Virus record (IMG/VR): IMGVR_UViG_3300032897_000001
Location: 1-64,000 of that record
Length of the DNA stretch: 64,000 bases
Origin: a virus
Reading direction: 5' to 3' (one strand)
The notes under the pieces were generated by a model. That model saw only the letters and a program-made list of their open reading frames with translations. It was not told where the DNA came from and made no database searches. The first letter of the stretch is position 1. Each line of letters starts with the position of its first letter. Below, in pieces: positions 1 to 40,630 of the stretch. Position numbers and translations under genes: made by a program.

Positions 1-1
1 A

Positions 2-721
2 GGAAATAATCATTATGCTAAAGTGGCTCGGGGTTTCCGAAACCCCGATCCACTTCCTACGCTTGACGACGCAGGCATAGACAAAAATCTAGCCAAACGT
101 GCCCGCAAACTTGAGCGCACTTCAGACGATGAATTCGAGAAAATCGTATCAAAAGGGCGCGAGGAAATTGATCGTGTTGTCGATAAAGCATTGATAAAGG
201 TACGCGGCACCCAAGGCAGCGGCGATAATGAGTGGTACACACCCACTGAATATGTCGAGCGTGCGCGCACCGTGTTGGGTGCTATTGATCTTGATCCTGC
301 CAGCAGTGTACTTGCTCAAGAAATCATAAGAGCACAGGAGTTCTTTTCCATTGACAACGATGGATTGAATCAAGAATGGTGGGGCCGTGTTTGGCTAAAT
401 CCCCCGTATGCCCAGCCCTGGATTGAACGATTCATTGATAAACTTGTCTCGGAATACAATTCCGAGAATATTGACGCTGCAGTATTACTGACACACAATT
501 ACACCGATACGGCATGGTTTCAAACCGTTGCGGCAAATGCAACTGCCTTGTGCTTTACCCGTGGGCGTATTCGCTTTTACAATGGCGATGAACTGGCATC
601 CCCGACACAAGGTCAGGTATTCTCTTACTTTGGCGCTGATATCGAATCCTTTTCACGTGTGTTCTCTGATGTAGGATTCATTGCCATTCCTAGAACAAAG
701 CCACTGGAGATCGGCTTTTAA
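2..721 (+). CDS. Phage DNA N6-adenine methyltransferase (Dam-like), probably 5'-truncated by the window edge
   Basis: Motifs NEWYTP, IDLDPAS, VWLNPPY and GRIRF. The frame is open upstream of the GTG at 23 to the window start. Confidence 0.85.
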   Translation, partial: GNNHYAKVARGFRNPDPLPTLDDAGIDKNLAKRARKLERTSDDEFEKIVSKGREEIDRVVDKALIKVRGTQGSGDNEWYTPTEYVERARTVLGAIDLDPASSVLAQEIIRAQEFFSIDNDGLNQEWWGRVWLNPPYAQPWIERFIDKLVSEYNSENIDAAVLLTHNYTDTAWFQTVAANATALCFTRGRIRFYNGDELASPTQGQVFSYFGADIESFSRVFSDVGFIAIPRTKPLEIGF

Positions 722-3063: not shown

Positions 3064-4521
3064 GTGGTGTACACAGAATCAGAAGATTCTAACATAGATA
3101 GTGTGCTCAATTCGAGGGAAGCTAACACAGATCAGCCGCGCATTGATCGCCGTTATTCGTGGAAGTTGCACCCCACAGCACAGCAAGATGCGCGCTTACA
3201 CGAACAGGCCCGCATGTGCACCGAATTGTGGAACGCACTACTCGAAATTGATTTTATATTACAGAATGTCCGGGCATGGGTTTTTGATAAGGACGCCTTG
3301 GGGCCATTGGTATTCGATTTAGCGGGGAACCTGCGGGTTGTGTCCTTGGCAGATATTTTGCTGCGCAGGCAATACGGCTTGCGCACACGTGCAGAGCATC
3401 TGGTTACTGCGATCGGTGCCGCTGGTGCAATTCAGTATCAGCCGGGACAAGATATCCGCACACGGTTGCCTAGCGCGTATGATCGCGGGTACTGGATCAC
3501 GCAGTTACGCGACTTGCAGCCCGAATGGCTGGCATTGTCAACATGGACACCTAGACAGGTTAGCGAAAATCTCGCCAAGGCATGGAAACACTGTTTTACG
3601 CCCCGCGCTAAGCGCATTCCCGGAAGAAAGTACGGCGCACCGCGGTTCAAATCGCTGGCGAATGCCTTTGCCATACCCCATCGGTTTGCCAGTGGCTGCC
3701 GGTTGGAACATGCCGGTATGCACGAACGCAGTTGGTGGCTTTATCTAGACGGTGTTTCCGATCAGAAGCTGTGGCGCCGTGGGCGCGGACGCGGCGACGT
3801 GTGGGCACGCGGAAAGCTGCCATCACCAGCGCTTAAGTGGACGGACGCGGATGTGCGTCATGTTGATGGACACTGGGAAATATCCGCTGCTGTTGTCATG
3901 GAACAGCGCCGCACTTTGATCGGGCGCGGTATTCCGATCACGGTTGAGTTCTGTGTCATTGGTGGTCTTGCACTGGTCAATAACGAGCAAGTGGAACTTG
4001 TCGAATTGATAAAGGCACAGGAACTGGACGTTAAACATGCAAATATGCAGCGTGAATTTGATCGGAATTGGCCACGCAACAAGCGCTGGACCGATGATGA
4101 ATGGAATAACCGTTGTGAGGATAAGGCCGAAATCGGCAGGCTTGCGTCACACATCGCCCGAGTGCGCCGCAACGCACTCCATGTGTGGACTAAGCAACTG
4201 GTAGAACGCGCAAGTGTGTTGACTATTATTAAACCGGCTTCTATCAAGGATTTTACACAGACGGCCCGCGGAAATGTGAAAAACTGGGGTGCGGCCGTTG
4301 AGATAGTGTCGGAAATTAACCGCGACACGCTATCACATGCGCCGGCTATGGCTGTGCAGATGCTGGAATACAAGGCGGAAGAACTTGGCATTCCGTGTCA
4401 AGTCATTGAAGATGATACACCAGAAATTTCCATTAGTAAGGCATTTGTTGCCAGTCGTAAGGTATCCCGACGCAGCGCGCGCGAGACAAAGAAAGGCGTG
4501 AGTGAAAATGAGAAAGATTAA
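3064..4521 (+). CDS. TnpB/Cas12-family RNA-guided protein, predicted nuclease-dead and C-terminally truncated
   Basis: N-terminal RRYSWKLHPTAQQ...LWNALLE (IS605 OrfB HTH-like), GAPRFKS and INRDTLS...QMLEYKAEELG. The RuvC-I position reads ITVEFC instead of GIDLG and RuvC-II reads TIIKP instead of xEDL. No CxxC zinc finger and no RuvC-III DxNAA. Exact start codon uncertain. Confidence 0.85.
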   Translation: MVYTESEDSNIDSVLNSREANTDQPRIDRRYSWKLHPTAQQDARLHEQARMCTELWNALLEIDFILQNVRAWVFDKDALGPLVFDLAGNLRVVSLADILLRRQYGLRTRAEHLVTAIGAAGAIQYQPGQDIRTRLPSAYDRGYWITQLRDLQPEWLALSTWTPRQVSENLAKAWKHCFTPRAKRIPGRKYGAPRFKSLANAFAIPHRFASGCRLEHAGMHERSWWLYLDGVSDQKLWRRGRGRGDVWARGKLPSPALKWTDADVRHVDGHWEISAAVVMEQRRTLIGRGIPITVEFCVIGGLALVNNEQVELVELIKAQELDVKHANMQREFDRNWPRNKRWTDDEWNNRCEDKAEIGRLASHIARVRRNALHVWTKQLVERASVLTIIKPASIKDFTQTARGNVKNWGAAVEIVSEINRDTLSHAPAMAVQMLEYKAEELGIPCQVIEDDTPEISISKAFVASRKVSRRSARETKKGVSENEKD

Positions 4522-5252: not shown

Positions 5253-7676
5253 CAACAACGAAGAACTAACGGAGAAATACTATGGACGCACTAGACTTAG
5301 CCGGGTTGTTGATGCTGATTGGCGCCCTGTTTATCGGGTTTTGCTGGGGAAAGACGGGGAACAGCGGCGGTTTTGTCGCCGGCTGCCTGATCTTTTTCGG
5401 CGGTTGGGTTATATTTTGCCTAGGATGGCTGGCAACATATGTGGGCGGGACGGCGCTGATTATTGCGCCCGCACCCGTGTTTGTCATTGCGTTTTTCGCC
5501 ACGCTGAACAAGAAACACAACCCATATCGTGAGGACTAAGGAGGTTGACATGTGTGGGGTACGGGTAAGTGATGTTCGCCCGGGAACGAAGCTGATTGGC
5601 GATGGCTTGTGCTGCACAACTGCGAACGTTCCCATGGAAGTGCGCAAAGAAGGCGGGCGCCTTTATGTGCTTTGTGAAGACGGACGGCATTGGCTGGTGC
5701 CACAGGATGGCCGTTACGTCGGGTTTCGGTTGGCTTGATAACTTGATAAGGAGTGGCCACAACATGAGTTGGAAACTGATCGGACGCTTTACCCACATCA
5801 AGCATGATGGTGATTACTTGATGTCCGTCGTACCAGACGACGATAAATGGGAGTGGCGCTTGCTTCACAGCAAGAATGTCCTTGCAAGCGAGAGCGGATA
5901 CGACACCAAGGAAGACGCACAGGATGCTGTGATGAAACAGCTTACCAAATACAGGGAACTCGAATGATGTCCTTTCGTATGATAGCACTTGTGGCCATTC
6001 TGGCCCTTCCTACCTGCAGCGCACGCGCTGCAGACTGCCAGAATAAGGACTACTCCCCTTATTCCGAAGATCACGCCTGTGTTAATAAGTATTACGAGGT
6101 TATGGAGATTGCCCATAACCTTGGCCGTGTCCTCTATTATGAGGAAAAGTGCGGTCTGCAATATGAACCAACGGCTGTTGCCCGTTACATCCGGGAACAC
6201 ACACCGAATGATCGCTTTGATTTTTCCGGGTGGGTGAACACCGCAGCCAGTTATGAAAGGACCATGGAGAAGACTTTTGATAAAGGTTCTGTGAGTCCGA
6301 ATACTCTGCTTGCTGTATGCACAAGCATACAGATGGCTGCAAAGCATTATGGGTTTGTGAAATGAACAAAGAAGGCGCCACACGTCGTGTGAAAACAACT
6401 TGGGAATTGATGTTCGAAGGCTTGGCGTGCCCGCATTGTGGGCTTATCAGGATGCACAAGCACTATTACCCTGGTCCGATTGACACCGCCCTGCAGCACG
6501 ATGAAAACGGCAACTATTGGACATGGAGTCCCCGGGACAATGAACAAGAACCCATCTGAGCAAGCCGTGTTATCCGTTGCCGAAGGAATACACGGCACGT
6601 GGTACTATCATCTATGGGTTCAGCCAAAGAATTCTTCCGGTGGAAAAGCGTTGTGTGGTGCCCAGGTGATGGTCACAAGCATTCCCATGTCGGCATGGGG
6701 AACACGGACGCATCTCAATGAGCGTTGGTGCAGTCTGTGTAAGAAGCTGACAGAGCCGCGGGTTGATCCGCAGGCTGTGGCAGCATTTGCAAATACTGAT
6801 GTGCCACTACCCACCAATCTGCCTGAACGCCTGGAAGAAGCCGCAACACGTCTAGACACAGACGATGACTTGCCTTTCGGATTCGTGCAGGTTTTTCGAG
6901 AGGCAGCGGCACGTATCAGAGAACTTGAGAAGCAGTGCAACCGGCTGGAATTACTTGTGCCCAGCCCGCAGGGGGAGGATACGGGTTTTGTGTGAGAAAA
7001 CGAGCCGTGCTCTTGAGCAGGCGATTCGTAAATGGGAAGCAATTGTTGCGGGTTCAGGCCGCGATCTAGGACCTGAAAATTGTGCTCTATGCCAGTTATT
7101 CTATTATAAAAACTGTGTTGGCTGTCCTGTTTATCAAAGCACGGGTCTGCGTTATTGTGCAGGTTCGCCATATGAAGAGTGGTCCTATTATGGGTATAGG
7201 TCCGCCACAGATGGCGGCGATATTGTCCCCTATGAACTTGCCAAGAAAGAGTTGGAGTTTTTGAAATCTCTTAGAAATCCTGTAACTGACTTTAGTAAGG
7301 GAGTCCCCCATACATAGGGTAATAAACCATCGGAAGGGATAAGAACGTCATGGATGAGCAAACGAAACAGGCTCTTGAAGGATCAATCGACAAGTGGGAA
7401 GCCATCGTTGCTGGCACCGGTGTTGACCGGGGTCGTCATAACTGTCCGTTGTGTAGGCTATTTTACATCCTTGGATGTAAAGGCTGCCCGGTTTACCTGA
7501 AAACCGGCGCACAGAATTGCAGGAAAACGCCTTACGAAAGATGGAAAATTCACGGTTACCGGCTTTATGGCTGTAGCACGATTGAAGGGACAAAAATTAT
7601 GGAGATGGCGCGGGATGAACTGGAGTTTTTGAAATCGCTGCGGGAACCGTCTGCCAACGTTTCGTAGGAGGTTCTC

Positions 7677-8960: not shown

Positions 8961-9041
8961 GTTGACGTGCCGCAAGGGTAGCGGACCATTCTGTGACCAC
9001 GCACAGAGCGGAAGTCGCGGGTTCGAATCCCGTCGTTGACA
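8961..9041 (+). tRNA. tRNA-His(GUG)-like gene with a 9-nt insertion in the anticodon loop
   Basis: Acceptor GTTGACG/CGTTGAC, D arm CCGC/GCGG, T arm GCGGG-TTCGAAT-CCCGT. The anticodon arm is 26 nt instead of 17. No encoded CCA. Confidence 0.7.
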
Positions 9042-13971: not shown

Positions 13972-14048
13972 GCGCGCGTAGACCAACGGTAGAGTCCGGT
14001 TCCTCAAAAGAACTCCAAGTATCGGTTCGAATCCGATCGCGCGCACCA
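13972..14048 (+). tRNA. tRNA-Leu(CAA) with a short variable region
   Basis: Cloverleaf with acceptor GCGCGCG/CGCGCGC, anticodon loop CT-CAA-AA, TTCGAAT T-loop and encoded ACCA. Confidence 0.88.
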
Positions 14049-14099: not shown

Positions 14100-14173
14100 G
14101 GCTCCCTAGTCCAATTGGCAGAGACGACGGTTTTAGAAACCGTGCGTTCCGGGTTCGAATCCCGGGGGAGCCA
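14100..14173 (+). tRNA. tRNA-Leu(TAG) with a short variable region
   Basis: Cloverleaf with acceptor GGCTCCC/GGGAGCC, anticodon loop TT-TAG-AA, TTCGAAT T-loop and discriminator A. No CCA. Confidence 0.88.
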
Positions 14174-14198: not shown

Positions 14199-16574
14199 TT
14201 AGAACGGCGGCAACTCGTCTGAGACCGTATCCCGTACTTCGGGCTGTGTCGCCCGCGCCATTACCATGGCTGCGTCAAGCCTCTCCCGTACCGACAAATC
14301 CGTGCGCCCATAGATCATTTGCCGCTTGGTGGCACCTGCGGCATTGATAGGAAGTCTCCACAGTCCTTGTTTAGAGTCCGGATTATTAACGGGTACATAG
14401 CCGGCATTCTCCATGCGATGCGGGATGACGCGTGCGCTCTTGCGATCGGACAGCCATCGGGCAAAATCCGAGTCTGCTGCTTCGGCAAGCACCATTGCCA
14501 ATGTGAGCACAGGAGGCTTTCCTAGCCTCTCCAAAACGTCTTCAAGTTCTGCGTCATCATTGGATCTGCCAGCATTCACCGCAGCCCAGAACGCCTCTGT
14601 CTTAGGAGGCGGAGCCTTTGGATCGAATCCGGACAGGTCCAGCGCCAAAAGATACGCCATCACGTCAGCGGCGCCACCTTGTTCATAATATTGGTACAGT
14701 TCATTGAAGTAGGAGACACTGAGCGTTCCCGCCGTCATTTCGGACCACGTCATATAATGGCGCCTGTCATCGGCAGGCATGTAGAGTGCATCCCGATGGT
14801 TCGTGGTCATGATCACGCCAACGGCGTTGACAATGCTGTATTCCCGTGTGTTCTTTTCATCAATGCGGAGCACATCCGGAGGCGCGGCAAGTAGGATCTT
14901 GGTGTGGTCGTAGAATTGATATCTGTCCACATCTCCCATGTCCCGTGCCTCGGAGACACGGAGGATGACGGATTTGAGGAACCCGTTGAACCTGCCCAAC
15001 AATGAAACAGGTGTTGTTTCCTGGAAATTCCACGGTCCTATAGCAATTTTGACCGGTTCCAAAATGGAATCCTTACCGATTCCCGGCTCGCCTCCAAGCA
15101 CAAGAGCATGGTTTAGCTTCTGTCCTGGACGCTGCACACGGTGGGCAAGCCATAGAACAATTCTCTCGGCATAATCCGGATAGATGTTTCGGACATGCTG
15201 GAGCCACTTTTCCGCACCTGCGGCATTTCCTGGGGTAAGTGTCGGCGGACGGTAGAAGTTGAAGCAATTCACGCCTTCCCGATCAATCCAACCGCCCTCG
15301 GATGTCAACCTGTCCCGGATGATCATTGGCAGTCCGGGCGCCCATGTTGTCTGTTCCACGGGACGGTTTTTATCCAGCCATGATGACGCTTTTTTCCCAA
15401 GCCGCGCGTCTACGCTGGTTTTGGGCCACATTTCCCGCGTTGGTATAAAAATAAATGTGTGCGTCGGCATGTGTGCATAAAAATCATTCAATGTCAGCTT
15501 TGCCCGGCTTTTGGGCGGTTCTTCATCATTATTGGGCGTAACCGTGCCATTTGGCAGACGATCCGGGCGGACAGCATTGGACAACGCTGTACGTGTCGGT
15601 TCGTCACCACGAACACGACGCATGTCGTTGAAATCAGTATCTTTTTCATTGCGGATTACACCTGAAAAGTCAGGAACAGCCACCAGCCCTTCAAGTGCAA
15701 TGGCTGCTTTGGTTGCTGCCTCCATGCCCGGGTTCATAGGTTTTCCATTGACAACGGTTTTCCAGTCGTCATCAGCGGCAAAAATCAACTCAGAGTCTGG
15801 CCACAGGTTCCGGGCATATTCGCCCGCTTCCATGACTTTGTTTGACGCGAACGCGACGATTACGGCACAGCCTGTGAGTTCTGCGATGGTCGCCGCTGTG
15901 GCAAATCCTTCGGCAACGTAAACACGCGGCGTTTCACGTGAAACGTCTGCTTGCTCGGCAGGGATGACATAAAGGCTTCCTCGGACCCTACTGCCTTTCG
16001 CATAAAGCTTGCTGCCACTTGTCGAGATGGTTTGCAGAGACCAAATCAACCCGTCATCCCCATATAACGGGATAAGCAGCGTATCGCCCTCTTGCCTTAT
16101 GTCATAGGTGCCAATGCTCTTTTTTACGAGATAGGCATGTTCCGCGTTAGCGGGCTTGGCAGCCTCGAAACGTTGGCGGCACGCCATGGCCACACGTTCC
16201 CAGGCAGCTTGTTGGCGCGCCTTGGCTTCTTCCTGTTCCCGGCGATTAGCCGCGATGGCGCGGTCAATTTGCTCTTGTTCTTCCTGGGTAAGAGGGCGGT
16301 CTGTTTTTTGATAATAAGAGGATTCCCAACCCAGCGAATCCGTATAATTTATGATTGTCCACCGCGGCCAGCCGTCTGTGTCATACACATATTGCGCGTC
16401 ACCGCGCCCGGAACGGCCTTTGTTGGCAGCGTTGGCACGGGGCCAGGAACCGTCTGAGGCGCGGCCAATGACGACGTTGCTCCGGGCAAGACTGATTTGG
16501 CGTTTTTCAAGATCCTGTCTAAATTGTCTTTCTGCTTCAGCTAAATCATTACGTGTAAGCGGACCCTGAAGCAT
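14199..16574 (-). CDS. TOPRIM primase fused to an SF3/DUF5906-type helicase
   Basis: YVAEGFATA and ADDD TOPRIM motifs, TDFND, and Walker A GGEPGIGKDS. Confidence 0.88.
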   Translation of the reverse strand: MLQGPLTRNDLAEAERQFRQDLEKRQISLARSNVVIGRASDGSWPRANAANKGRSGRGDAQYVYDTDGWPRWTIINYTDSLGWESSYYQKTDRPLTQEEQEQIDRAIAANRREQEEAKARQQAAWERVAMACRQRFEAAKPANAEHAYLVKKSIGTYDIRQEGDTLLIPLYGDDGLIWSLQTISTSGSKLYAKGSRVRGSLYVIPAEQADVSRETPRVYVAEGFATAATIAELTGCAVIVAFASNKVMEAGEYARNLWPDSELIFAADDDWKTVVNGKPMNPGMEAATKAAIALEGLVAVPDFSGVIRNEKDTDFNDMRRVRGDEPTRTALSNAVRPDRLPNGTVTPNNDEEPPKSRAKLTLNDFYAHMPTHTFIFIPTREMWPKTSVDARLGKKASSWLDKNRPVEQTTWAPGLPMIIRDRLTSEGGWIDREGVNCFNFYRPPTLTPGNAAGAEKWLQHVRNIYPDYAERIVLWLAHRVQRPGQKLNHALVLGGEPGIGKDSILEPVKIAIGPWNFQETTPVSLLGRFNGFLKSVILRVSEARDMGDVDRYQFYDHTKILLAAPPDVLRIDEKNTREYSIVNAVGVIMTTNHRDALYMPADDRRHYMTWSEMTAGTLSVSYFNELYQYYEQGGAADVMAYLLALDLSGFDPKAPPPKTEAFWAAVNAGRSNDDAELEDVLERLGKPPVLTLAMVLAEAADSDFARWLSDRKSARVIPHRMENAGYVPVNNPDSKQGLWRLPINAAGATKRQMIYGRTDLSVRERLDAAMVMARATQPEVRDTVSDELPPF

Positions 16575-20020: not shown

Positions 20021-20137
20021 GGCAGGCGTGGTCGGGCGTGGCGTGGATGGGCATGGTGCGGCTGGGTGAGGCAGGCGGGGTATGGCTCGTTTCGGTGCGG
20101 CTAGGCGCGGTGGGACCGGGCACGGTTAGGCAGGCCG
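20016..20137 (+). repeat. GGY-NN pentamer array A: 2 units of 9 and 11 pentamers, punctuated by GGCA
   Basis: Strict 5-nt phase, reset by GGCA at 20021, 20070 and 20129. Confidence 0.9.
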
Positions 20138-20168
20138 CTAATTTTCAACTTTAACCTGGAGAAGACAA

Positions 20169-20987
20169 ATGGCAAAAAAAGCAGAACTAACAACCGTGAT
20201 CTTTGATGAAATCAAGACGCGGCGGGTTATTGCCCACATCGTGGGCACAAGTCCACTAATCATGCACCGATTCGCGTTCAAGGCATGGCAGGAACTGCTT
20301 TGTCCGTCGCCGCGGAAGAACGCCGCGGAGCGTGCACAGACGCTTAAGCACAACCCACTGGAGGAATATCGCGGCTGTTTTTACAGGAATCGCAATCCCA
20401 ACGCACCAGCACTATTTCATTTGCCAAATGGAATGCCACATCAGAGCATTGCGGCTGCGGCGCTTGATATTCCGGGAACAACGCGCGCGGCCATGGAAAG
20501 GTGGACGCAAGTCGTTGACATTAATATTGATCTTTATGGCGTTCCACAATTGTTCATGGCAATGGTCAGGAACAGCGACATGAACAGAACACCGGACGTT
20601 CGCACGCGCCCAATTTTCCCGCGATGGGCATGCAAGCTGGAAATTGAGTACAAGCAGAACCCGCTGACAGATCAGAACGTCCTCAATTTGATTGCTGCGG
20701 CGGGTCTGATCGTTGGTTTTGGCGATTGGAGACCGCAAAAAGGTGGTCCTTATGGAAAATACCGCCTTGCTGAAGCACGCGATACTGAGTTCTTGGATAT
20801 CGTCAAGCGAGAGGCACGCGCACCGCAACAAGCAGCATACGATCAGCCGGCATACTATGACGATGACACGGCGGATTTGATGCTGTGGTTCACAGAGGAA
20901 ATGGCACGTCGTCGGCAGGATGACCCGGAAAGCCCGGGCAACTCGTTTGACGATGGTATCGAAATCGCTCCGGGCGGTTTGCAGTAA
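20169..20987 (+). CDS. Stand-alone Cas7-like/RAMP-fold RNA-binding protein
   Basis: N-terminal strand IAHIVGTSPLIMH, HLPNGMPHQSIAAAA helix, VRTRPIFPRW region and C-terminal glycine-rich loop AGLIVGFGDWRPQKGGPYGKY, in the order seen in RAMP proteins. No other cas genes nearby. Confidence 0.75.
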   Translation: MAKKAELTTVIFDEIKTRRVIAHIVGTSPLIMHRFAFKAWQELLCPSPRKNAAERAQTLKHNPLEEYRGCFYRNRNPNAPALFHLPNGMPHQSIAAAALDIPGTTRAAMERWTQVVDINIDLYGVPQLFMAMVRNSDMNRTPDVRTRPIFPRWACKLEIEYKQNPLTDQNVLNLIAAAGLIVGFGDWRPQKGGPYGKYRLAEARDTEFLDIVKREARAPQQAAYDQPAYYDDDTADLMLWFTEEMARRRQDDPESPGNSFDDGIEIAPGGLQ

Positions 20988-21046
20988 CACCATTTACGAA
21001 AATGCTTCCCATGGTGCTTGTGTTTTGCGTTCGCCGTGGGAAGTCA

Positions 21047-21370
21047 GGCAAGGTTAGGCAGGCGGGGTCCGGTTGGGTCCGATATGGCTGGGTAATGTGG
21101 GGCACGGCATGGTGGGGCAGGCAGGGCTGGGTGAGCATTGGCAAGGCTGGGTCCGACATGGCAAGGCAGGCATGGTGCGGCAGGTTTCGGCAGGGCATGA
21201 TAAGTCTTGGCAAGGCAGGCGGGTTCTGGTGGGGTGGTTCACGGCGGGTTTCGGCTAGACGTGGCAGGCGGGGCATGCTCGGGTAGGGTAGGGCAAGATG
21301 CGGCATGACATGGCAAGGCAGGCTTGGTGCGGCTAGATCGGGCATGATCTGGCAAGGCGTGTAACGGCAA
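21047..21370 (+). repeat. GGY-NN pentamer array B: 6 units of 11, 9, 9, 9, 10 and 8 pentamers
   Basis: GGCA punctuators at 21057, 21116, 21165, 21214, 21263 and 21317, preceded by a hairpin at 21005-21043. Confidence 0.92.
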
Positions 21371-21385
21371 AATCGGGGAAAACAA

Positions 21386-21904
21386 ATGGCAGTGAGTCAA
21401 GAGGATCTACAGAAAGCAATTGATGAAATCGCCGAAAAAGGAGGGCTGTCCAGTAAAGCTGTAACAACACGCATGGTCGTGGATGCGGCAAGGAACGAAA
21501 ATCACATTCTACACGATGAGTTTGATTGGAACGACGCTTCGGCAGCCGACAAACACAGGCTGGCCGTTGCAGCCAGCCTGATCCGAAAATATCAGTATGT
21601 TGGTTTTGACGTGAAACGAGAGCCTATCGTTGCGCGGGGTTATGTCTACAGTCCGCCATCCCGGGCATATGTGCCGCTCTCGCGCACGATACAGGATGCA
21701 AAACGTTCTCACGCGCTCTTGCTAAGCGAAATTTCCGCCATCACTGGCCGGGTTCGAAGTGCACAGAGGATCGCGGATGTTCTATTCATGCGGCAAGAAC
21801 TTGATCGGGCGTTGCACAACGTGATTGATGAGTTGCTGTTTGAAATTCCGGCGCCCGGTGCGGTGCGGAAAGTGGTGGGTGTTGAAGAGGGGGATGAGGA
21901 ATAG
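21386..21904 (+). CDS. Conserved phage protein between pentamer arrays B and C (candidate accessory factor)
   Basis: GGGGA RBS; motif VVDAARNENHILHDEFDWNDASAADKHRL...LIR. Confidence 0.75.
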   Translation: MAVSQEDLQKAIDEIAEKGGLSSKAVTTRMVVDAARNENHILHDEFDWNDASAADKHRLAVAASLIRKYQYVGFDVKREPIVARGYVYSPPSRAYVPLSRTIQDAKRSHALLLSEISAITGRVRSAQRIADVLFMRQELDRALHNVIDELLFEIPAPGAVRKVVGVEEGDEE

Positions 21905-22054
21905 GCATGGCAGGTGTGGCATGGCCGGGCGTGTTATGGTCCGGTGTGATATGGCAGGCATGGCAAGGCGGGACAGGATAAGGCGGGGTATGGCAGGCAT
22001 GGCCTGATTGGGCATGGTGAGGTGGGGCGGGATGGGGTATGGCAGGCGGGGTTT
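21904..22054 (+). repeat. GGY-NN pentamer array C: 3 units of 8, 7 and 9 pentamers
   Basis: GGCA punctuators at 21909, 21953, 21992 and 22041. Confidence 0.9.
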
Positions 22055-33557: not shown

Positions 33558-33613
33558 GGTCGAAACGGCGGAGATTCCGCCGTCGTGCCGTGAGGCGGCA
33601 CCTGATGATGGCC
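33558..33613 (+). ncRNA. Type II hammerhead ribozyme 1
   Basis: ggtc GAAA cggcgga-gat-tccgccg UC gtgccg-tgagg-cggcac CUGAUGA u ggcc. Confidence 0.9.
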
Positions 33614-33630
33614 AAACAGGGAGAACAACT

Positions 33631-34916: not shown

Positions 34917-34972
34917 GGTCGAAACGGCGGAGACTCCGCCGTCGTGTCGTAAGGCGGCACCTGATGATGACC
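34917..34972 (+). ncRNA. Type II hammerhead ribozyme 2
   Basis: Full core GAAA...GUC...CUGAUGA; stem II ggtc/gacc. Confidence 0.9.
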
Positions 34973-35219
34973 AAAGGAGAAAGACACCATGCCACGTATG
35001 AGAATCACAATCGAAGTCGAGACCGCTTCATTCAAGAACATGGGAGAGCGGAACAGATTCAACAAAAAGGTGTTGGAAGTGGCCCAGGCCGCTTTCCCCA
35101 CCATCGGGAAACAAGAACTCGTTTTTGTCTCGACTGAAGACATGTCCGGGCATGCCATCTGCCTGGGTGAAGACGGTATGCCAACCAACGCCGTTCGTTA
35201 TTGAAAGGAGCAATGATCC

Positions 35220-38176: not shown

Positions 38177-38232
38177 GGCCGAAACGGCGGAGATTCCGCC
38201 GTCGCACCGTAAGGCGGTGCCTGATGATGGCC
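38177..38232 (+). ncRNA. Type II hammerhead ribozyme 6
   Basis: Core intact; stem II ggcc/ggcc. Confidence 0.9.
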
Positions 38233-38473
38233 AAAAGGAGAAAGACAATGGCAGAATTTATCGTGTCAAAATACAAAATCGGCGACATCGTAACTTTGAA
38301 AAGCGGCGAGGTGTTGCGCATTACCGCGATCCGCGATCGCGCCCACTACACCAAGGCCGCATATAGTGCGGTGGAAGTCCGTAAGGGTAAGCGTCCTGGT
38401 AAAGAACGTCTCTTCATTGAGGCGGACGCGTCATGACGCGGCATAACGAAATTCAAAACGCTGGGGAACAAAA

Positions 38474-40557: not shown

Positions 40558-40613
40558 GGCCGAAACGGCGGATATTCCGCCGTCGTGCCGTGAGGCGGCA
40601 CCTGATGATGGCC
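40558..40613 (+). ncRNA. Type II hammerhead ribozyme 8
   Basis: Core intact; lies between the stop at 40556 and the RBS of 40631. Confidence 0.9.
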
Positions 40614-40630
40614 GAAAGGAAAGAAAACAC

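What the first reader, a model, noticed from the sequence alone, without database searches (positions are those of the whole stretch)
21047..21370. Grammar of the pentamer arrays: GGCA punctuators delimit 11 distinct guide-sized units
Seen: the 5-nt phase is reset only by the 4-mer GGCA (as GGCAGGY). This gives units of 9 and 11 (A), 11, 9, 9, 9, 10 and 8 (B), and 8, 7 and 9 (C) pentamers, about 39-59 nt each. The NN strings differ between units: A1 GT-CG-GT-GT-TG-AT-GC-TG-GA; A2 GG-AT-TC-TC-GC-TA-GC-GG-CG-AC-TA; B1 GG-CC-TG-CC-AT-TG-AA-GG-AC-AT-GG; B4 GG-CT-GG-GG-AC-GG-TC-TA-GT; C1 GT-AT-CG-GT-AT-CC-GT-AT. Deviations in the constant triplet mostly affect position 2 (GAY, GTY) and keep the pyrimidine. 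Each unit carries 14-22 variable nt, similar to the information in a CRISPR guide. A slippage microsatellite would homogenise rather than diversify these positions. Inference: GGCA marks processing or filament boundaries.
Basis: partly seen in the sequence, partly recalled or inferred. Interest (0 to 1): 0.85.

Follow-up and report, generated by a model that had tools for sequence, protein, structure and literature searches.

The report
Staggered VIPR guide arrays in phage
The five-letter repeat arrays are the guide-RNA arrays of a phage VIPR system, a CRISPR-related RNA-guided DNA silencer first described in 2026, so this is a clean new example of a known kind and not a new kind of element.

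Summary
Three same-strand intergenic arrays (20021-20137, 21047-21370, 21905-22054) are built from GGY-NN pentamers. Position 1 is G in 98%, position 3 is a pyrimidine in 98%, and NN varies. The 5-nt phase is reset only by 4-nt GGCA steps, which gives 11 units of 7-11 pentamers.

The gene between arrays A and B (20169-20987) is a Vipr protein. Its profile hits PDB 36pp, 'SUSP1 Vipr protein' (E=3e-6), with the GGY-contact residues conserved. Its AF2 model matches only Cas7-type RAMPs. A 172-aa partner gene follows it, as in the relatives.

This is a VIPR system (bioRxiv 10.64898/2026.04.26.720920) of the 'staggered array' architecture named in that paper's fig. S18 legend: neighbouring vrRNAs overlap by 1 nt and have no long tail. 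In about 45 related loci, 85-89% of phase resets are the same 4-nt step at a GGCR|G motif. Distant Vipr clades lack it.

No RNA data exist, so cleavage at GGCA is untested, and no target element was found. Two guides read as codon positions 1-2 of conserved protein motifs. B1 spells a zinc knuckle (33 hits against 7 and 1 in controls). B4 spells a ThiF/E1 loop, with one 18/18 match.

The scan has noted VIPR-like loci before, in at least 299 other genomes.

The parts
20021..20137 (+). vrRNA array A. It starts with a leading GGCA directly after the stop codon of the upstream gene, then unit A1 (20025-20073, 9 pentamers + GGCA) and unit A2 (20074-20132, 11 pentamers + GGCA), then a trailing GGCCG.
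20169..20987 (+). vipr gene, 272 aa: a single-RRM Cas7-like RAMP. R147, D186, W187 and R188 align with the SUSP1 Vipr residues R138, D177, W178 and R179 that hold the GGY motif.
   Evidence: PDB 36pp_D 'SUSP1 Vipr protein', profile E=3.3e-6. (AF2 pLDDT 75.8). (69 Foldseek hits at E<=1e-3; every listed hit is a type III/VII Cas7-family RAMP). (paper: contact residues). phrog_4652.
21004..21043 (+). Hairpin between the vipr stop codon and array B. Its role is unknown.
   Evidence: -23.6 kcal/mol, z = -1.63 against shuffles, so it is not significant on its own.
21047..21370 (+). vrRNA array B. Leader GGCAAGGTTAGGCA (21047-21060), then units B1 21061-21119 (11 pentamers), B2 21120-21168 (9), B3 21169-21217 (9), B4 21218-21266 (9), B5 21267-21320 (10) and B6 21321 to about 21364 (8, with no closing GGCA|GG).
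21386..21904 (+). Candidate vap (vipr-accessory) gene, 172 aa, phrog_15946. It is mostly helical and matches no known family or fold.
   Evidence: A homologue lies directly downstream of vipr in the nine distinct IMG/VR relatives that have a detectable homologue; L002-L004 share one array sequence, so they count once. No Pfam or PDB match. AF2 pLDDT 71; no Foldseek hit at E<=1e-3, only weak XRE/HTH-like rows.
21905..22054 (+). vrRNA array C. GCATGGCA follows the vap stop codon, then units C1 21913-21956 (8 pentamers), C2 21957-21995 (7) and C3 21996-22044 (9), then a trailing GGCGGGGTTT.

Best explanation
The locus 20021-22054 is a phage-encoded VIPR (Viral Interference Programmable Repeat) system: three vrRNA arrays, vipr, and a vap-like gene, laid out as array A - vipr - array B - vap - array C. 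Each unit of 7-11 GGY-NN pentamers is one guide. By homology with the solved SUSP1 complex, one Vipr protomer binds each pentamer. It buries G-G-Y through the thumb Arg and the G-loop D-W-R, and presents the NN pair. The concatenated NN pairs recognise double-stranded DNA that reads NN-x-NN-x (the 1-nt skip rule), and binding represses transcription of rival mobile elements or other target genes. The arrays are of the 'staggered' architecture. Units abut with no structured tail and are separated only by a 4-nt step, GGCA|GGC. This equals a terminal GGCAG pentamer that shares its last G with the next unit. The step breaks the 5-nt register, so a filament cannot run on into the next unit, and it marks the vrRNA boundary. 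What is shown here: the anatomy, the Vipr homology and fold, conservation of the contact residues, conservation of the grammar across the clade, and the hypervariability of NN. What is inferred from the literature: RNA binding, the skip rule, and silencing. What is not shown: transcription, cleavage at GGCA, and the real targets.
For: Vipr identity: PDB 36pp SUSP1 Vipr; RAMP fold; contact residues R138/D177/W178/R179, equivalent to R147/D186/W187/R188 here. Array anatomy. Published definition of VIPR, vrRNAs of 9-16 repeats, the 1-nt skip rule, seven types and staggered arrays with 1-nt overlap. Conservation: 13 IMG/VR loci and 50 genome loci encode relatives of this Vipr. Same-strand pentamer arrays sit next to the gene in nearly all loci that have enough flank: 7 of 8 and 32 of 38 in the close clade. 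The 4-nt step accounts for 62/70 and 159/187 internal phase resets in the close clade, but only 8/63 in distant Vipr clades. The punctuator varies by lineage while always keeping the 4-nt step: GGCA|GGC, GGCA|GTC, GGCG|GTC, GGCA|GCA. Unit sizes are 6-16 pentamers with a mode of 9-12 over 87 units. No NN strings are shared between phages. The vipr-vap pair is syntenic. No self-targets were found, as the paper also reports. Guide B1 read as NNx codons gives GPCP(I/M)C(K/N)GT(I/M)G. Its 16-nt core has 33 IMG/VR hits, 24 of which read PCP[IM]C[KN]GT with both Cys codons, against 7 hits for the reversed pattern and 1 for a 2-nt gap. Guide B4 gives GLGGTGSYV. It hits ThiF/E1 nucleotide-binding loops in frame in lineages that differ at the wobble positions, including one 18/18 match.
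Against: There are no RNA data for this phage, so transcription, vrRNA ends and Vipr loading are untested (one search lists only the source DNA run). No target element was identified. Extensions of core hits and multi-guide convergence were at chance in the phage's own genome, in relatives, in IMG/VR and in JGI metagenomes. The 18/18 B4 match alone is not significant: about 0.15 random perfect hits are expected per 18-nt pattern. G-rich NN strings also tend to spell glycine-rich loops. Several units carry many non-canonical pentamers (4 of 9 in B3 and in B4) and may load poorly. GGCAGG also occurs in phase without a reset, so the boundary signal must involve more than this hexamer. The sequence match to SUSP1 Vipr covers only about 48 residues. 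The VIPR literature consists of 2026 preprints, and by the paper's own wording the staggered architecture was not confirmed by small-RNA sequencing.
Confidence: 0.85

Rival explanations
1. It is a VIPR locus, but the arrays are partly decayed or are not used as 11 separate guides. The GGCA steps would be relics of how units are duplicated or acquired, not functional boundaries, and only some units load Vipr.
For: Many pentamers are degenerate (position 2 is non-G in 23%; 4 of 9 in B3 and in B4). No targets were found. In-phase GGCAGG occurs without a reset.
Against: The 4-nt step and its motif are conserved across lineages with only 35-50% Vipr identity while the NN strings turn over completely. 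Unit sizes stay within the published vrRNA range. [quoted passage not shown]
Confidence: 0.08
2. It is a non-guide nucleic-acid element: an RNA sponge or TRAP-like ring-protein binding site (triplet plus 2-nt spacer), an R-loop or origin element like immunoglobulin switch regions, a G-quadruplex tract, or, on the antisense strand, a C-rich Rho trap.
For: The arrays have a 5-nt period, a strongly G-rich coding strand (40-44% G over the padded array windows) and an intergenic position. These were my working ideas.
Against: The flanking gene is a Vipr/RAMP with the GGY-binding residues. The arrays travel with that gene in dozens of otherwise unrelated phages and prophages. The hypervariable NN pairs with a fixed GGY are what the solved VIPR complex requires.
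Confidence: 0.03
3. It is a slippage microsatellite or a chance G-rich repeat with no function.
For: Tandem Repeats Finder sees only short period-15/20 fragments here.
Against: Positions 1-3 are fixed while positions 4-5 are diverse. The arrays are confined to one strand. They keep their position next to vipr in distant relatives whose array sequences are unrelated.
Confidence: 0.01

Closest known systems
VIPR systems with 'staggered' vrRNA arrays (bioRxiv 10.64898/2026.04.26.720920, Results and fig. S18 legend)
   Same: Both have a Vipr RAMP plus an accessory gene, GGY/NN pentamer guides, and neighbouring vrRNAs that overlap by 1 nt so that the end of one marks the start of the next. That overlap is the 4-nt GGCA step seen here.
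   Different: The paper gives no junction motif in its text, and states that the other two architectures, not this one, were confirmed by small-RNA sequencing. Here the junction consensus (GGCR|G), its lineage variants and the unit-size distribution are worked out over about 45 loci. This phage also splits its guides into three arrays around vipr and vap. Which of the seven types it belongs to could not be determined, because the supplementary tables are not held.
Type II VIPR of Escherichia phage SUSP1 / Pseudomonas fulva prophage (PDB 36pp; bioRxiv 10.64898/2026.04.26.720927 and 10.64898/2026.10.15.759431)
   Same: Both have a homologous Vipr with the thumb Arg and the G-loop D-W-R, guides of 9-16 GGY/NN repeats, and a phage origin.
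   Different: SUSP1 vrRNAs are about 100 nt, each with an invariant pseudoknot 3' tail of about 40 nt. Here there is no tail; units of 39-59 nt abut directly. The Vipr here is 272 aa against 202 aa, with a C-terminal helical extension. Sequence similarity is detectable only around the G-loop.
Class 1 CRISPR Cas7 backbone filaments (Csm3/Cmr4, Cas7-11, type VII Cas7)
   Same: They share the RAMP fold (Foldseek E about 3e-5) and the arrangement of one protomer per short RNA segment with flipped bases.
   Different: Cas7 filaments have a 6-nt period on a contiguous spacer flanked by long repeats. They depend on Cas6-type processing, adaptation genes and other cas genes, none of which is present here.
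TRAP (trp RNA-binding attenuation protein) binding sites
   Same: Both use triplets separated by 2-3 nt spacers, repeated about 11 times. This is an analogy of pattern only.
   Different: The protein fold is unrelated, the triplets are GAG/UAG, and TRAP sites have no guide function and no link to a RAMP gene.

Membership tests
VIPR system | Vipr protein: a minimal single-RRM RAMP with a G-loop and a thumb | tested here: met
   Profile hit to PDB 36pp_D 'SUSP1 Vipr protein', E=3.3e-6; single sequence E=2e-4. The AF2 model's 69 Foldseek hits at E<=1e-3 are Cas7-type RAMPs in every listed row.
VIPR system | Residues that hold the GGY motif (SUSP1 R138, D177, W178, R179) | tested here: met
   They align with R147, D186, W187 and R188. 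R147, D186 and R188 are invariant in 10 clade members. SUSP1 H17 has no conserved counterpart.
VIPR system | vrRNA arrays of tandem GGY-NN pentamers (9-16 per guide) in the intergenic regions flanking vipr, with GGY conserved and NN hypervariable | tested here: met
   There are 11 units of 7-11 pentamers. No NN strings are shared between related phages.
VIPR system | Adjacent vipr-accessory (vap) gene | tested here: inconclusive
   A 172-aa gene is syntenic directly after vipr in the nine distinct IMG/VR relatives with a detectable homologue. It has no family or fold match, so its identity with any of vap1-6 could not be checked.
VIPR system | Carried by a virus or provirus | tested here: met
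   It lies on a 100.8-kb virus record with a phage primase-helicase and Pam3-like genes. Relatives are IMG/VR contigs and prophage-like loci.
VIPR system | vrRNAs are expressed, are discrete, and co-purify with Vipr | not testable with these tools
   The only sequencing run listed is the source DNA (wetland metagenome).
VIPR system | Targets obey the 1-nt skip rule (NNxNNx), with the skip at codon wobble positions | tested here: inconclusive
   The B1 core has 33 hits, mostly in-frame zinc-knuckle codons, against 7 for the reversed pattern and 1 for a 2-nt skip. B4 matches 18/18 in frame in a ThiF/E1 gene. A1 and A2 are at background, and there is no multi-guide convergence.
VIPR type II (SUSP1 clade) | Each vrRNA ends in a conserved structured 3' tail of about 40 nt | tested here: not met
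   Units abut directly and are separated only by the 4-nt GGCA step.
VIPR staggered-array architecture | Neighbouring vrRNAs overlap by 1 nt, so the end of one is the start of the next | tested here: met
   All unit lengths are 5n+4. 4-nt resets make up 85-89% of resets across the clade. RNA ends were not tested.
CRISPR-Cas | Direct repeats of 23-50 nt alternating with contiguous spacers, plus cas1/cas2 or effector modules | tested here: not met
   There are no such repeats and no cas families among the neighbours.

The most novel reading that the evidence does not exclude
In this clade the guides are written against the codon-position-1,2 strings of conserved protein motifs. Here those would be an E1/ThiF adenylation loop, of the kind found in a multiubiquitin operon, and a primase/DnaJ-type zinc knuckle. 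Because the wobble base is skipped, one guide would cover many diverged alleles of a defence gene or a rival-element gene. In addition, the bare 4-nt GGCR step would act as a self-contained ruler that sets filament length without a structured handle or a dedicated processing nuclease.
Probability: 0.2. Interest if true: 0.6.

Novelty: new member of a known kind. Interest (0 to 1): 0.3.

Why it matters
VIPR is a very recent discovery: an RNA-guided DNA binder with a non-contiguous code, proposed as an ancestor of CRISPR RAMPs. The published experiments cover the tailed type II guides. This locus and its roughly 45 relatives give a clean description of the tail-less 'staggered' architecture. They supply a conserved GGCR|G junction, a rule that unit length is 5n+4 nt, units of 6-16 pentamers (mode 9-12), and lineage-specific junction variants. 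These are testable predictions for where vrRNA ends fall and how filament length is set. The clade is widespread in prophages of Alphaproteobacteria (Bradyrhizobium, Methylobacterium, Microvirga, Aureimonas) and Paraburkholderia, so it could be tested in culturable hosts. For this scan it is a confirmation, not a discovery.

Tried and rejected
1. Early hypotheses, before the PDB hit, were a TRAP-like or sponge RNA, an R-loop or origin element like Ig switch regions, Chi-like arrays, iterons for the neighbouring primase-helicase, an antisense Rho trap, and G-quadruplexes. All were dropped once the flanking gene proved to be a Vipr.
2. Rfam found nothing in the arrays. blastn against phage records found nothing.
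3. Sequencing runs: no RNA holder is listed; the only run is the source DNA.
4. Target searches:
   - All 11 guides, at skips 0-3, were scanned against the phage's own genome and 11 related loci, with shuffled controls. Nothing exceeded the shuffles apart from one marginal 3-nt-skip hit (B3, 15/18 against a shuffle maximum of 14).
   - IMG/VR 16-nt cores of A2 gave 2 hits and of A1 gave 3 hits, with extensions at chance.
   - The JGI metagenome scan of the A1 core gave at least 120 hits. The flanking NN matched in 5 of 121, which is chance, and the codon frame was not enriched.
   - No locus collected good matches to several guides.
   - A 22-nt guide from a Bradyrhizobium prophage relative gave 1 hit against 4 reversed-control hits in 301 genomes of that genus, and none in five host genomes.
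   - B4 was not found, at up to 1 mismatch, in 91 genomes of the phylum of the Bradyrhizobium host genome G001.
5. The Vap structure has no significant fold match.
6. Promoter and terminator scans around the arrays were at shuffle level. The hairpin before array B is not significant.
7. The VIPR type (I-VII) could not be assigned, because the paper's supplementary tables are not held.
8. Complex prediction was not used, because Vipr-RNA binding cannot be submitted to it.

Full report
**What is in the sequence**

The window is the first 64 kb of a single 100,794-bp virus record. It was assembled from a wetland metagenome.

Between co-directional + strand genes lie three strongly G-rich arrays, A, B and C, at 20021-20137, 21047-21370 and 21905-22054. 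Read in 5-nt steps they are GGY-NN pentamers. Over 100 full pentamers:
- position 1 is G in 98%;
- position 2 is G in 77% (A 14, T 7, C 2);
- position 3 is C or T in 98%;
- positions 4-5 are mixed.

The phase is reset only by 4-nt GGCA steps followed by GG(C/T). The unit lengths are 49 and 59 nt in A; 59, 49, 49, 49, 54 and about 44 nt in B; and 44, 39 and 49 nt in C. All are 5n+4.

A parser that is free to insert any 1-4 nt slip puts every internal reset in the window at GGCA. Lag-5 GG pairing is about twice the level seen in dinucleotide shuffles. The only other lag-5 signals in the 100-kb genome are two weak ones inside long ORFs.

One caveat: GGCAGG also occurs three times in phase without resetting (21120, 21179, 21189). 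The hexamer alone therefore cannot be the whole boundary signal.

**What it is**

The 272-aa gene between arrays A and B (20169-20987) is the key. A profile built from it and nine relatives hits PDB 36pp, 'SUSP1 Vipr protein', at E=3.3e-6 over the G-loop region (the single sequence gives 2e-4).

In that alignment R147, D186, W187 and R188 match SUSP1 R138, D177, W178 and R179. The cryo-EM preprint shows these residues holding G1 and G2 and forming the pyrimidine pocket.

The AF2 model (pLDDT 75.8) returns 69 Foldseek hits at E<=1e-3. Every listed hit is a Cas7-family RAMP of type III or type VII CRISPR systems or of Cas7-11.

The literature search then gave three 2026 preprints on VIPR (Viral Interference Programmable Repeat) systems. 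They report:
- a phage-borne minimal RAMP (Vipr), an accessory gene (vap), and vrRNAs of 9-16 GGY/NN repeats;
- NN dinucleotides that pair with double-stranded DNA reading NNxNNx, with the skipped base usually at codon wobble positions;
- seven types with different array architectures, including 'staggered arrays with overlapping vrRNAs', in which neighbours overlap by 1 nt.

The locus is therefore a VIPR system of the staggered architecture. It is not type II, because the units have no 40-nt pseudoknot tail.

**Comparative support**

Searching with the Vipr gave 13 IMG/VR loci (35-51% identity) and 50 loci in bacterial genomes and MAGs. The latter are mostly Alphaproteobacteria (Bradyrhizobium, Methylobacterium, Microvirga, Aureimonas, Sphingobium, Rhodobacteraceae), plus Paraburkholderia and others.

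Wherever enough flank exists, pentamer arrays lie beside the gene on the same strand. They reach 1.5 kb and about 24-30 units in L003, where the array ends in a stem-loop followed by a T run that looks like an intrinsic terminator.

The 172-aa gene that follows vipr in the window (21386-21904) is syntenic directly after vipr in nine distinct IMG/VR relatives. No other neighbouring gene is conserved. It is the vap candidate, but it matches no family or fold.

In the close clade, 62 of 70 (IMG/VR) and 159 of 187 (genomes) internal phase resets are 4-nt steps. In distant Vipr clades (23-28% identity) the figure is only 8 of 63, and those clades have longer units and other slips.

The junction motif varies by lineage but keeps the 4-nt step: GGCA|GGC (the window, L003, Aureimonas, Bradyrhizobium), GGCA|GTC (L005), GGCG|GTC (L009), GGCA|GGAGTGACA (L010), and GGCA|GCA (L013, whose pentamers are mostly GGA-NN).

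The 87 units from nine phages hold 6-16 pentamers, with a mode of 9-12. Three longer outliers are probably pairs of units with a degenerate junction. No two phages share a guide: the best NN similarity is 71% over 7 pairs, which is chance. Conserved scaffold, conserved junction and freely turning-over NN pairs are what guide arrays should look like.

**How it most likely works**

This follows by inference from the SUSP1 structures. One Vipr protomer binds each pentamer, so the protomers form a filament along each unit, and the NN pairs are presented for gapped pairing with DNA. At a 4-nt step the next GGY arrives one base early, so the filament register cannot continue. Each unit would therefore be a separate filament and, if the RNA is trimmed, a separate vrRNA of about 40-60 nt.

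I could not test whether a nuclease cuts at GGCA|G or whether the register break alone defines the units. No RNA run holds this sequence. By the paper's own wording, the staggered type was not among those confirmed by small-RNA sequencing.

**Targets**

Scanning all 11 guides at skips 0-3 against the phage's own genome and the related loci gave nothing above shuffled guides, apart from one marginal 3-nt-skip hit. This agrees with the reported absence of self-targeting.

Exact 16-nt core scans of IMG/VR gave 2 hits (A2) and 3 hits (A1), with chance-level extensions. A JGI metagenome scan of the A1 core gave chance-level flanks and no frame enrichment.

A lead from earlier notes of this scan was to read guides as NNx codons. 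I followed it for two guides.

- B1 reads G-P-C-P-(I/M)-C-(K/N)-G-T-(I/M)-G. Its core has 33 IMG/VR hits. Of these, 24 read PCP[IM]C[KN]GT with both Cys codons; by my own grouping of the contexts they represent about 14 independent families. The reversed pattern gives 7 hits and the same NN string with a 2-nt gap gives 1. The hits are zinc knuckles of the C-x-x-C-x-G-x-G form in many different proteins. The best full-length match (19/22) is the Zn_Ribbon_Prim domain of a primase.
- B4 reads G-L-G-G-T-G-S-Y-V. Of its 9 hits, 4 are the GxGxxG loop of ThiF/E1-like genes, in frame, from lineages that differ at the wobble positions. One match is 18/18, in a DUF6791+ThiF gene flanked by a Multiubiquitin gene and a DUF6527 gene. 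The string is absent, at up to 1 mismatch, from 91 genomes sampled from the phylum of the Bradyrhizobium host genome G001.

These results fit the wobble-skipping code and hint at motif-level targeting, but they are not proof. A single 18/18 hit is expected by chance about 0.15 times per guide, G-rich NN strings favour glycine loops, and no locus collects several guides. A guide from a Bradyrhizobium prophage relative also found nothing above the reversed control in 301 genomes of that genus.

**Verdict**

The kind is already known from the 2026 preprints, including the staggered architecture. This scan has itself noted VIPR-like loci in at least 299 other genomes. The locus is thus a new member of a known kind.

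What this analysis adds is the explicit junction grammar of the tail-less clade and its phylogenetic limits, the split of the guides into three arrays around vipr and vap, and two candidate motif-level guide readings.

Noticed in passing
window 33558-33617, 34917-34976, 38177-38236, 40558-40620 (+): There are four full-length matches to the type II hammerhead ribozyme (RF02276) at 26-32 bits, just under the gathering score of 37. None appears at the gathering threshold. The VIPR paper describes arrays with hammerheads between the guides in other types, but no pentamer array lies near these copies.
   Followed up: partly
L013:5280-5960: In this relative (48% Vipr identity) the pentamers are mostly GGA-NN (position 3 is A 69%, C 26%) instead of GGY-NN, and the junction is GGCA|GCA. 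This suggests an altered pocket for the third scaffold base.
   Followed up: no
L190:~5385-5410, L193:~5385-5410 and ~5650-5675, L195:~3650-3675: In the Microvirga, Methylobacterium and Aureimonas prophages a conserved leader of about 25 nt (GGYYGGCRAGGATCAYGGCRRGGCA) precedes the first unit of the arrays. It is absent from the window's arrays. It may be a promoter-proximal signal or a nucleation signal.
   Followed up: no
L239:4643-6715 (-): A viral contig carries a three-gene operon: Multiubiquitin (PF14452), DUF6791+ThiF (E1-like) and DUF6527. Guide B4 matches 18/18 at the E1 nucleotide-binding loop. From memory, such ubiquitin-like conjugation operons have been reported as anti-phage systems; I did not verify this here.
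   Followed up: partly
L001 and L007 (IMG/VR contigs end at or inside the vipr homologue); L006 ends inside its array: Several metagenomic contigs break at the pentamer arrays or just before them. This suggests that the arrays hinder assembly and that VIPR arrays are under-represented in short-read assemblies.
   Followed up: no
window 8961-9041, 13972-14045, 14100-14173 (+): There are three tRNA genes upstream of the primase-helicase gene (14199-16574, - strand).
   Followed up: no
window 1-50 and genome about 100745-100794: Nearly identical copies of about 50 nt, each containing a GGGGTTTCCGAAACCCC hairpin, lie at both ends of the 100.8-kb record. They could be repeated terminators or a sign of terminal redundancy or circular permutation.
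   Followed up: no
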